Shown: in pieces, positions 45,001 to 47,697 of the stretch
Numbering within the stretch: the stretch's first letter is position 1
Layout: each line of letters starts with the position of its first letter
Assembly (NCBI GenBank): GCA_003135555.1
Contig: PLCF01000011.1
Coordinates: 16,634-64,330, forward strand
Length of the DNA stretch: 47,697 nucleotides
DNA from: Vulcanimicrobiota bacterium
GTDB taxonomy: Bacteria; Vulcanimicrobiota; Vulcanimicrobiia; Vulcanimicrobiales; Vulcanimicrobiaceae
Direction: 5' to 3'
Position numbers: made by a program

Positions 45001-47697
45001 CCAACCTCCTCGAACGCACGCTTGACGATAGCGCCAACCGCCGCACCATCTTGCCCGAAGCGCTCTTGTGCAGCGACGAGATCGTCGCCCTGGCCAAGAA
45101 GATCGTCGACGGCCTGCGCGTGGACGAGCGCCGCATCGCTGAGAACCTGCGCACCTACGGCCCATTCTCGGGGACCGAAGCGATCCTCATCGAGGCGGCC
45201 AAGCGCGGCGGCGACCGCCAAGAGCTGCACGACGTCATCCGCGAGAGCGCGATGCGTGCGCACGACGCGCTCGCCGCGGGCGATTCGAACCCGCTCGCGA
45301 CGTTGCTCGCCGACGACGAGCGGATCGCGCGCTGGGTCGATCCGGCCGAGGTGCGCGAACTGCTCGACCCTACCAGCCACGTCGGCGACGCACCGGAGCG
45401 CGCGCGCCGGCTCGCCCAGCGGGTTCGCGACACCGTGGGAACGGGGAACGGTACCAATGCGTAAGGGACACGAGATCGCGCGCGGCAAGACCAAGGTTCT
45501 CTACGAGCTGGAGGGTCAGCCCGACGTGCTCGTGGTGCAGCAGCAGGACGGGATCACCGCCCGCGACGGCGAGCGGCGCGACGTCATGGAAGGGAAAGGG
45601 CGCATCGCGGCCCAGACGACGGCGCGCGTGTTCCGTCTTTTGAACCTGTGCGGTCTGCCGACCCACTATCTCAACGGCGGCGAGGACGACGACGACAACG
45701 AGATGCTCGTGCGCCGCGCGCAGATGATCCCGCTCGAGGTGGTGGTGCGCGGCGTCGCGGCGGGATCGCTGGTCAAACGGCGGCCCGGTATCCAGCGTGG
45801 CGCGCTGTTGGTCCCGCGCATGATCGAATTCTTCCTCAAGGACGACGCGAACCACGATCCCCTGATCGATCCCGACACGATCGTCGCGCAAGGCATCGCC
45901 ACGCCGGCCGAGATCGCGACGATGCAAGAGCTGGCGCGAATAACCTACGAGATCCTCGCGCACGCCTGGCGCCGCCGCGATACCCTCCTGGTCGATCTCA
46001 AGATCGAGTTCGGACGCCTGGCAAGCGGCGAGGGCAAGGGGCAACTCGTCATCGCCGACGTGATCGACAACGACTCGTGGCGCGTGTGGCCGCAGGGCCG
46101 CGAAGAGCTGATGCTCGACAAGCAGCAGTATCGCAACCTCGAGGTCGTCACGCCGGCCGATCTCGACCGCATCCGTGCCAACTACGAGACCGTCGCCGAG
46201 ATCGTCGGGACGTTCCCGCAGATGCGGCCGGGGATGGTGGCGCTCATCAGCGACGGTGCCGAGCACGGCGCGACGACCGAACTCATGGGTCGGGCTCTGG
46301 GCAGCTACGGCCTCCCCTCGGTGCGGCACATCGTATCGGTCACTCGCACGCCGGGCTACGTGCTGCAGCTGGTCGGACAGCTCGAAGCGACGTTTGCGCG
46401 GATGGTGACCGTCGCCATCGGCACGGCCCAGAGCGCGCTCGCCGACGTCATCGAGAACGCGACCGCGAACCCGGTGCTGGGCGTCGACGTCGCCGATCCA
46501 CGTGCGGACGACGTCGCGCTGCGCTGCGCGAAGGCGTTCGCACTCGAGGACACCGTCGTGTTCGGCCGCGTCCTGCTGTTGCAAGCGAACGCGCGCAGCG
46601 CCGTGCTCGGTGCCGATGCGCAGCTCAACGCGCCGCCACCGCCGCTCCCACCAGGTGTAGCGCGTGCCTGAGGCGGCGGCCGTGCTCGACGACGCTGTCG
46701 CGCGCGGTCGCCGCCTCCGGCTCGCGCTCTCGGACGAAGAACTGCGGCGTATCGCCGAGCACCTGGGACGGCTGCCGACCGACACGGAGCTGTTCGCCTT
46801 CGATGCGCAGTGGAGCGAGCATTGCTCCTACAAGTCGTCGCGCGAGCACCTCGGCAAGCTGCCCACCACCGGGCCGAACGTGCTGGTGGGCGTCGGCGAA
46901 GACGCGGGGATCGTTCGGCTCGGTGAATGGCAAGGCGAGAAGTACGGGATCGTGGTCGCGCACGAGTCGCACAACCACCCCTCGCAGGTCGTGCCGTTCG
47001 AGGGGGCGGCGACGGGCGTCGGCGGGATCGTACGCGACGTGCTGTGCATGGGCGCCGAGGTCATCGGCATCGCCGACCCGCTGCGGTTCGGAAGGCTCGA
47101 GAACGAGCATTGCCGCTACGTCGCGCAGTCGGTGGTGGACGGCATCGCCGCCTACGGCAACGCGATCGGCGTGCCCAACGTCGGCGGCGACGTTTTCTTC
47201 GACGAGTCGTTCGACGACAACGTGCTCGTCAACGTCATCGCCCTCGGGCTGGTGAAGGAGAAGGACATCATCCATTCGCGCGCGCCCAGGGGTAGCGTCG
47301 GCTGGGACATCGTGCTGGTCGGAAAGGCGACCGATCGCAGCGGCTTCGGCGGCGCGTCGTTTTCCTCGTTGATGCTCGACGAAGAGGACGCCGAGCAGAA
47401 CAAGGGCGCGGTCCAAGTCCCCGACCCGTTTCTCAAGAACGTGATCATGCGCGCGTCGTACGCAGTGTTCGCAGAGTTGCGCAAGGCGGGGATCACCGCC
47501 GGATTCAAGGATCTCGGCGCGGGCGGACTTGCCGGTTGCAGCGCCGAGCTGTGCGCCGCCGGCGGGATGGGTGCCGAGATCGAGCTGGAGCGCGTCTCGA
47601 CCGCGCAGACGAATCTCCCGCCCGAAGTGATCGCCATTGGGGAAACGCAAGAGCGCCTGTGCTGGATCGTCCCACCGTCGTTCACCCCGCTGCTGCT

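What a model noticed while it worked through the whole genome (the two positions that open the first line are those of the whole stretch)
45457..46671. Animal-type PAICS (PurC-PurE fusion) whose carboxylase half is dead across Vulcanimicrobiales
The SAICAR synthetase g02609 is a 404-aa PurC-PurE fusion closest to animal PAICS, not to bacterial PurC. Its C-terminal PurE-fold domain has lost the SAH and GRSNGL motifs in all aligned relatives, while an ordinary PurE is kept elsewhere, so the domain is a conserved pseudo-enzyme, probably an oligomerisation scaffold.
Evidence so far: Best PDB hits are 4ja0 (E 2e-58) and human ADE2 2h31 (E 2e-55) over residues 4-343; stand-alone PurC only E>=9e-35 over the N-half; fusion in 31 of 31 order genomes; 15 of 15 aligned C-domains lack both motifs; 4 of 4 closed relatives hold a separate PurE at E about 1e-62.
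(Added by a program. Inside this text positions count along the whole contig: contig position 16,634 is position 1 of the stretch shown here. "Call 12" and the like, gene names such as g00115 and contig names such as C1 are that model's own, and its searches are not shown. The text may have been shortened before it was handed on; [...] marks where a part breaks off. The agent that wrote the report below was given it as the finding of a first reader that could run no searches.)

Follow-up and report, generated by a model that had tools for sequence, protein, structure and literature searches.

The report
Purine enzyme with staged dead half
These soil bacteria carry a two-part purine-making enzyme built like the human one, but its second half has lost its active site and survives only as a folded passenger, while the nearest sister group still has the intact enzyme.

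Summary
Real, but narrower than claimed. Window 45457-46671 encodes a 404-aa PurC-PurE(II) fusion with the PAICS fold (VIA Z 44 to human 6yb8). Its synthetase site is intact. The carboxylase half is dead by sequence: P-loop and GRSN motif absent in 110 of 110 close relatives, His303 kept in only 6, and about 23 residues (helix plus loop) deleted. Relatives show a series: the sister order has an intact fusion (27 of 27 loci) and no purE/purK (0 of 32 genomes); this order has purE (117 of 121) beside purK; one family lost only the His; the main family also lost the loop; one genus deleted the domain (6 of 121), so it is neither universal nor essential. It is inherited from a widespread prokaryotic PAICS family, not taken from animals. 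The domain is under relaxed purifying selection (dN about 2.4 times the N-half, against 1.3 when intact). A structural role is likely; the octamer-scaffold idea is untested and weakened by the deletion. The same deletion recurs in Monosiga and another lineage. This scan noted the same thing before on other DNA (e1-7211713, e1-2041435). No paper found.

The parts
45457..46671 (+). purC-purE' fusion gene, 404 aa, PAICS architecture (P0001)
   Evidence: AlphaFold2 mean pLDDT 93.5; Foldseek TM 0.89 and VIA Z 44.2, rmsd 2.4 over 389 residues to human PAICS 6yb8
45457..46215 (+). SAICAR synthetase domain (res 1-253), active site intact
   Evidence: 18 of the 24 site residues listed in PMC9376930 are invariant in 110 of 110 relatives; P0001 differs from human at G42 (R36, shared by 41 of 110), N43 (D37) and M190 (L181)
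46216..46629 (+). Catalytically dead PurE class II-type domain (res 254-391), still folded
   Evidence: Pfam AIRC below cut-off; VIA Z 19.0, rmsd 1.8 over 136 residues to Treponema PurE 3rg8
46246..46263 (+). Lost phosphate loop: ISDGAE in place of MGSTSD (human 272-277)
   Evidence: GSxxD in 0 of 110; present in 27 of 27 sister-order loci
46336..46347 (+). SVTR in place of SAHK; the general base His303 is Thr296
   Evidence: role of His303 from PMC9376930. S294 (107 of 110), R297 (84 of 110, K in 7) and P299 (110 of 110) are kept
46420..46440 (+). GTAQSAL in place of GRSNGL (human 330-335)
   Evidence: motif in 0 of 110 at this place
46471..46533 (+). Stretch spanning the ~23-residue deletion (loop, helix and PSG loop of intact PAICS)
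   Evidence: P339-K359 span 17-29 residues in 110 relatives, 43 in intact and f2 proteins; helix 353-359 in the model of the intact sister protein, absent in the P0001 model
46504..46626 (+). Retained C-terminal helices (res 350-390), with helix 299-312 the best-kept part of the dead domain
   Evidence: A358, K359, D365, G370, R371, R380 invariant in 110; mean consensus share 0.81 for 299-315 and 363-390 against 0.85 for the N-domain and 0.49-0.53 for other helices
44079..45464 (+). purB, adenylosuccinate lyase (start approximate), overlapping the fusion's start
   Evidence: Pfam Lyase_1 and ADSL_C
46664..47697 (+). purL (runs off the window), overlapping the fusion's stop
   Evidence: Pfam FGAR-AT_linker, AIRS, AIRS_C

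Best explanation
The protein is a working SAICAR synthetase that drags a dead AIR carboxylase domain. The ancestor of the class had a bifunctional PAICS (CO2 + AIR to CAIR to SAICAR), as the sister order still does. The stem of this order gained purE(I)-purK, the ATP-driven bicarbonate route to CAIR. The fused carboxylase became redundant and perhaps harmful, since an active class II site also decarboxylates free CAIR. It decayed in steps: His first, then the phosphate loop, the GRSN loop and a 23-residue core segment, and in one genus the whole domain. Because it was fused, it could not be lost as a gene. It is kept as a folded structural appendage whose retained helices cover an oily face of the synthetase domain and may still give some self-contact; deleting it needs compensating changes on that face. 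Shown: architecture, motif loss, deletion, distribution, relaxed selection. Inferred: no catalysis, order of events, gain of purEK at the stem, the futile-cycle motive, the packing role.
For: Intact sister order: MGSxxD, SAHK and GRSNAL in 27 of 27 loci (3 loci of unpublished genomes left out); purE over cut-off 0 of 32, purK 0 of 32, 18 of them at least 90% complete. This order: purE 117 of 121, class I type (SAHR, GGAAHLP) with purK downstream in most of 20 loci; purK whole in 17, in pieces in 4, not found in 5 of 26 hand-picked genomes. Family f2: His lost in 5 of 5, loop kept. Same gene order holA-purB-purC-purL in f3, f2, g24 and f1 loci. Tree of the N-domain: class clade 100/100, intact f3 sister to the dead clade 95/98. 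The order's PurK is one clade (SH-aLRT 98), apart from other PurKs of the phylum. Median dN(C)/dN(N) 2.40 in f1 (38 genes), 2.08 in f2 (5), 1.28 in f3 (6); dN/dS of the domain 0.02-0.49 in the 12 closest f1 pairs. In g24, L64, C65, V119 and partly I162 and I166 turn polar or small. Chloroflexota, where class II purE is a separate gene: 0 of 14 genomes with a purE hit next to or fused with purC hold purK; 14 of the other 16 do, and the 2 that do not carry a class II purE. Bulk CAIR is decarboxylated by human PAICS (PMC8988938, passages).
Against: No enzyme assay. The residue contacts were not read from coordinates; the packing role rests on five related g24 genomes, one event, examined after the fact. 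dS is 0.5-1.6 in GC-rich DNA, so dN/dS is rough. The N-domain tree leaves f2, g24 and f1 unresolved; the order of steps leans on the genome taxonomy and the PurK tree. The PurK tree is quick, has few outgroups and three rows may be mis-trimmed, so loss of purEK in the sister order is not excluded. G128 has a near-intact domain (SVHK, GRSNGL) together with purE and purK. This genome and G049 and G068 show neither purE nor purK.
Confidence: 0.6

Rival explanations
1. Octamer scaffold: the dead domains still assemble the PurE-type eight-subunit core that holds the synthetase dimers, and selection keeps them for that.
For: [quoted passage not shown] Helix 299-312 and the C-terminal helices are kept nearly as well as the enzyme half. 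Family f2 keeps the full-length domain. Domain arrangement in the model matches the human protomer.
Against: [quoted passage not shown] Genus g24 and many Chloroflexota run this type of PurC without the domain.
Confidence: 0.24
2. New function: the dead site was reshaped into a ligand- or partner-binding module, for example a nucleotide sensor that tunes the synthetase or a dock for the stand-alone PurE.
For: New clade-specific residues near the old site: D266 (100 of 110), G267, R290 (110 of 110), with S294, R297, T298, P299 kept. L64 and the xPGY.LQL..QL.ATF.R helix are shared by f1 and f2 but not by the intact sister order. E. coli PurK, PurE and PurC are reported as interaction hubs (PMC10912719, passages).
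Against: Surface helices 268-282 and 323-349 drift fast (consensus share about 0.5); the domain is dispensable in g24; independent dead copies share the deletion but not these residues. No ligand or partner evidence.
Confidence: 0.1
3. The domain still carboxylates AIR by an altered mechanism, and this genome relies on it.
For: purE and purK were not found in G000, G049 (96% complete) or G068 (93%). A His stands at the catalytic position in 6 of 110.
Against: The 20-kb purEK neighbourhoods of four same-genus genomes have no orthologous match in G000, only scattered 67-75% hits; in G084 purK is cut at a contig end: assembly gaps. His303 is called universally conserved and its mutants inactive (PMC9376930). 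The only other PurE-fold gene in G000 is larB-like, beside larC (names by recalled resemblance).
Confidence: 0.04
4. The gene was acquired from an animal or other eukaryote.
For: Best PDB hits are animal. A tree that joins the class and the eukaryotic rows as one clade is not rejected (AU p 0.094).
Against: The eukaryotic rows form their own clade (100/100) that excludes the class; the family is spread over Chloroflexota, Patescibacteria, an archaeon and other families of this phylum; the locus is syntenic across the class.
Confidence: 0.03

Closest known systems
Animal PAICS / ADE2 (human PDB 2H31, 6YB8; invertebrate 4JA0)
   Same: Domain order PurC then PurE, whole-chain fold (TM 0.89, Z 44), synthetase site, DNDSWR-type PurC, long C-terminal helix.
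   Different: Carboxylase motifs gone, about 23 residues deleted, CAIR made by a separate PurK/PurE(I); bacterial operon purB-purC-purL; oligomer state unknown.
Class II PurE (AIR carboxylase), Treponema denticola PDB 3RG8
   Same: Best structural match of the C-domain (Z 19.0, rmsd 1.8, 136 residues); the intact sister proteins carry SAHK and GRSN like class II.
   Different: Stand-alone and active; here fused and lacking MGSxxD, His and GRSN.
Intact prokaryotic PAICS-type fusions (sister order; other Vulcanimicrobiota; Patescibacteria such as OGV95225.1)
   Same: Direct orthologues at the same locus (49-51% identity), automatically named as the bifunctional enzyme in JGI.
   Different: All motifs intact and no purE/purK; no paper on them was found in the library.
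PurE-PurE' of Methanobacteria (PMC3261824, passages)
   Same: A degenerate PurE-like domain fused to a purine enzyme, suggested there to be catalytic or structural.
   Different: There the partner is PurE, the second domain is required for complementation and purK is absent; here the partner is PurC, purK is present and the domain is dispensable in one genus.
Monosiga brevicollis XP_001749986 (P0163) and unnamed P0134, P0144, P0172
   Same: PAICS with dead C-domain and the same core deletion.
   Different: P0163, P0134 and P0144 sit inside the eukaryotic clade (P0172 was not in the tree): an independent decay. Their purK/purE status was not checked.

Membership tests
PAICS (bifunctional AIR carboxylase / SAICAR synthetase) | One chain with N-terminal SAICAR synthetase and C-terminal PurE-fold domain | tested here: met
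PAICS (bifunctional AIR carboxylase / SAICAR synthetase) | SAICAR synthetase site residues (human G16-K19, E97, K131, D133, D137, K191, E193, D207, D212, R215, K228, R232) | tested here: met
   all of these invariant in 110 of 110
PAICS (bifunctional AIR carboxylase / SAICAR synthetase) | AIR carboxylase site: M272-D277, S301-K304 with His303, V328-L335 | tested here: not met
   ISDGAE, SVTR, IGTAQSAL in P0001; GSxxD 0 of 110, GRSN 0 of 110, His 6 of 110
PAICS (bifunctional AIR carboxylase / SAICAR synthetase) | Homo-octamer with a PurE core and channels between sites | not tested
PAICS (bifunctional AIR carboxylase / SAICAR synthetase) | Replaces PurK and class I PurE in the genome | tested here: not met
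   purE in 117 of 121 order genomes, next to purK; met in the sister order, 0 of 32
Class I PurE (N5-CAIR mutase) | SAHR and GGAAHLPG motifs, TIGR01162 above 149.6 bits | tested here: not met
   26-31 bits; met by the separate purE of relatives
PurC / SAICAR synthetase, PAICS-type subfamily | PF01259 above cut-off and DNDSWR signature; groups with PAICS N-domains, not canonical PurC | tested here: met
   195 bits; tree 100/98 split from six canonical PurC rows
Pseudo-enzyme domain | Fold kept, catalytic residues lost, sequence under purifying selection | tested here: met
Pseudo-enzyme domain | Measured absence of catalysis and a shown non-catalytic role | not testable with these tools
   needs assay

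The most novel reading that the evidence does not exclude
The dead carboxylase was not just left behind but repurposed: inactivated under selection to stop a futile decarboxylation cycle once PurK arrived, then kept as a nucleotide-sensing or PurE-docking module that rebuilds CAIR hand-over between separate enzymes. On this reading the class is a natural before-and-after experiment on PAICS channelling, and animal PAICS itself descends from this prokaryotic family, next to Vulcanimicrobiota lineages in the tree (100/98, thin sampling).
Probability: 0.12. Interest if true: 0.78.

Novelty: new variant of a known kind. Interest (0 to 1): 0.5.

Why it matters
Papers read here treat the PurC-PurE fusion as the animal state ('expressed separately in lower organisms', PMC8988938). 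A bacterial class holds the intact fusion, and its sister order holds each step of its undoing. That gives enzymologists matched natural proteins (intact, His-less, loop-deleted, domain-less) to ask whether a PAICS-type synthetase needs the octamer or the channel, a point still debated for the human cancer target. It is also a clean case of how a pseudo-enzyme is born: the same replacement by PurK/PurE(I) removes a free-standing class II purE in Chloroflexota but leaves a passenger where the gene was fused, and the same segment is deleted in unrelated lineages. Practical point: metabolic annotation should not count this domain as PurE. The chemistry and pathway are known, so this is an evolutionary and structural finding, not a new system.

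Tried and rejected
Complex prediction of four copies of the C-domain was not available, so the oligomer state is open. ESM Atlas search of residues 254-395 gave no usable hit; this shows nothing. Two of three look-ups of earlier findings were blank. Nine paper searches (PAICS with bacteria, class II PurE, horizontal transfer, Eremiobacterota, Monosiga, pseudoenzyme, fusion, PurE2/PurCE) listed no paper on bacterial PAICS fusions or a dead PurE domain; the library lacks most subscription papers, and the PAICS and Treponema PurE structure papers were not read, so this is weak evidence. No supplements were opened. Rejected: the PurE-like hit on contig C42 as the missing purE (61 bits, 222 aa, beside a larC-like gene). 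Rejected: a separate gene for the C-domain in g24 (purC abuts purL, single purE hit). Rejected: four regex hits to GRS[ND] in relatives, which lie in the C-terminal helix. The AU test did not reject class plus eukaryotes as one clade (p 0.094), so sisterhood stays open. First passes (wrong frames for sister-order loci; faulty pattern) were redone. The representative search missed full-length intact class members in its top 150, which are dominated by fragments and frameshifted reads. Expression was not examined.

Full report
Observation. The gene at 45457-46671 (+) gives 404 aa and overlaps purB upstream and purL downstream. Its best solved relatives by sequence are PAICS 4ja0 (E 1.6e-58) and human 2h31 (E 1.6e-55), stand-alone PurC reaching only 9.2e-35. 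The AlphaFold2 model (mean pLDDT 93.5) matches human PAICS 6yb8 over its whole length (TM 0.89; Z 44.2, rmsd 2.4, 389 residues), and residues 257-392 match class II PurE of Treponema best among PurE entries (Z 19.0). Database names place the relatives in Ca.

Which half works. PMC9376930 (passages and sections 3 and 5 read) lists the site residues. In alignment A3 (110 sequences, 60-87% identical: 80 of the 120 proteins listed, P0121 and 29 loci), 18 of the 24 synthetase residues are invariant. The carboxylase residues are not: GSxxD 0 of 110, GRSN motif 0 of 110, His at the catalytic place 6 of 110. The paper calls this His the general base, universally conserved, with inactive mutants. In addition the stretch P339-K359 spans 17-29 residues, against 43 in intact proteins; the model of an intact sister protein has a helix (353-359) and loops there that the P0001 model lacks. 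Loss of catalysis is inferred, not measured.

Distribution in the order. Of 121 genomes, 115 hold the fusion and 6, all of genus g24, only the N-half (115 and 5 of 120 without unpublished G100). In the five g24 loci read, the protein stops at 251-258 aa and purL follows at once. The five genomes of family f2 have a 422-423 aa form that keeps the loop and lacks the His in 5 of 5. A purE over the curated cut-off is in 117 of 121; it is class I and mostly has purK directly behind it. Among 26 hand-picked order genomes purK was whole in 17, in pieces in 4 and not found in 5. This genome lacks both genes, but it also lacks orthologous matches to the 20-kb surroundings in four congeners, as expected of a gap in an 84% assembly. 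G049 and G068 also show neither, and two g24 genomes show purE without purK.

The sister order. In all 32 genomes held, purE over cut-off and purK are both 0 of 32, while 29 of 32 have the fused domain (26 of 29 without three unpublished genomes). All 27 loci read carry MGSxxD, SAHK and GRSNAL. The gene order holA-purB-purC-purL is the same in f3, f2, g24 and f1 loci. Elsewhere in the phylum G124, G193, G126, G134 and G139 have intact fusions and no purE/purK; G153 has a decayed fusion and G183 a truncated one, both with purE and purK; G190 is decayed (61% complete, neither found); G128 has a near-intact domain and both genes, the one case against a strict either-or.

Origin. A scan of GTDB returned the best 80 of at least 592 loci: intact fusions in Vulcanimicrobiota and a patescibacterium, purC with a separate adjacent class II purE in Anaerolineae and an archaeon, and this purC alone in Chloroflexia and Ktedonobacteria. 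In 30 of these genomes, purK was in 0 of 14 with a purE hit next to or fused with purC and in 14 of the other 16; the two exceptions carry class II purE elsewhere. The N-domain tree (78 rows, 252 columns) holds the class together (100/100) with the intact order sister to the dead clade (95/98). The eukaryotic rows form a separate clade (100/100) among other prokaryotic rows. Joining class and eukaryotes is not rejected (p 0.094), but nothing places the class inside them. The order's PurK is one clade (98) with f2 sister to f1 (quick tree). The simplest reading is one gain of purEK at the order's stem, then His loss, loop deletion, and domain loss in g24.

Recurrence. A decayed domain with the same segment shortened also stands in G153, G190 and P0132, next to an intact relative (100/91), and in Monosiga brevicollis XP_001749986 with P0134 and P0144 inside the eukaryotic clade (98/90); P0172 and P0264 look alike but were not placed. 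Earlier notes of this scan report the same in another Eremiobacterota genome (e1-7211713) and in a CPR genome (e1-2041435); I saw them after my own analysis and did not check the CPR case.

Why it is kept. Median dN of residues 254-391 over dN of 1-253 is 2.40 in f1 (38 genes), 2.08 in f2 (5) and 1.28 in the intact order (6); dN/dS of the domain is 0.02-0.49 in the 12 closest f1 pairs (Nei-Gojobori, dS 0.5-1.6, rough). So selection is relaxed but not gone. What is kept is helix 299-312 and the helices after 350. In g24, which lacks the domain, N-domain residues that are oily in f1 and f2 turn polar: L64 (38 of 38 and 5 of 5) to R, E or K, C65 to R or Q, V119 to S or E; five positions drop by more than 4 hydropathy units and one rises. 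This fits a face covered by the domain, but it is one event, found after the fact, and no contacts were read from coordinates. Whether the domain still self-assembles is open. PMC8988938 and PMC10484210 (passages) describe the PurE core of the octamer and an active site made by three protomers; that the deleted helix lies in those contacts is my recollection.

A motive for early inactivation is inference: human PAICS decarboxylates bulk CAIR (PMC8988938), and PurK is thought to matter when CO2 is low (PMC3261824, passages), so an active class II site beside PurK/PurE(I) could waste ATP. G128 shows the two can coexist.

Novelty. Nine searches listed no paper on this, in a library without most subscription journals; PMC10912719 (passages) and PMC8988938 describe bacteria as having separate PurE and PurC. 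JGI already names some intact bacterial fusions as the bifunctional enzyme. Verdict: works like a PAICS-type SAICAR synthetase; not a member of bifunctional PAICS, since the carboxylase test fails; a new variant of a known kind with an unusually complete decay series. Interest 0.5.

Noticed in passing
L079-L084, L191-L220 (sister order); L085-L089; P0128, P0129: Bacteria with an intact animal-style bifunctional PAICS and, in the genomes tested, no purE/purK; no paper found. Arguably the better target for biochemistry.
   Followed up: yes
tree: The eukaryotic PAICS rows group (100/98) with fusions from other families of this phylum; animal PAICS may be of bacterial origin. Sampling is thin (80 of at least 592 loci).
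   Followed up: partly
P0163 (Monosiga brevicollis XP_001749986), P0134, P0144, P0172: Eukaryote-type PAICS with a dead, shortened carboxylase domain; purK/purE status unknown.
   Followed up: partly
L149, L152, L168, L183, L188; P0131: PAICS-type PurC fused at its C-terminus to a PurF-like amidophosphoribosyltransferase in Thermomicrobiales and related Chloroflexota (about 730 aa).
   Followed up: no
P0161, P0171, P0175, P0219; P0196: Reverse-order fusions (PurE with SAHR first, then PurC), and a 585-aa protein named orotidine decarboxylase with a C-terminal PurC match in Ca. Diapherotrites.
   Followed up: no
L274:3439-4137 (G076); G093: Two g24 genomes have class I purE with no purK beside it or found elsewhere (93-94% complete).
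   Followed up: partly
L001:1243-3158 (G000:C42): larB-like and larC-like pair (nickel-pincer cofactor genes, by recalled resemblance); the larB-like gene is the only other PurE-fold hit in this genome.
   Followed up: partly
window 41202-43928: Between holA and purB: a lipoprotein-like 320-aa gene (also in G001) and, on the minus strand, a 565-aa gene with a GFTLIE prepilin-type start and a proline-rich linker, absent at this place in the relatives' loci read.
   Followed up: no
window about 1-12000 and 33897-34946: Run of low-GC3, unfamiliar ORFs with an integrase-like piece (7624-8148) and restriction/defence-looking genes (6757-7593, 8226-11549), likely a mobile island; a transposase-like ORF at 33897-34946. 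By eye only.
   Followed up: no
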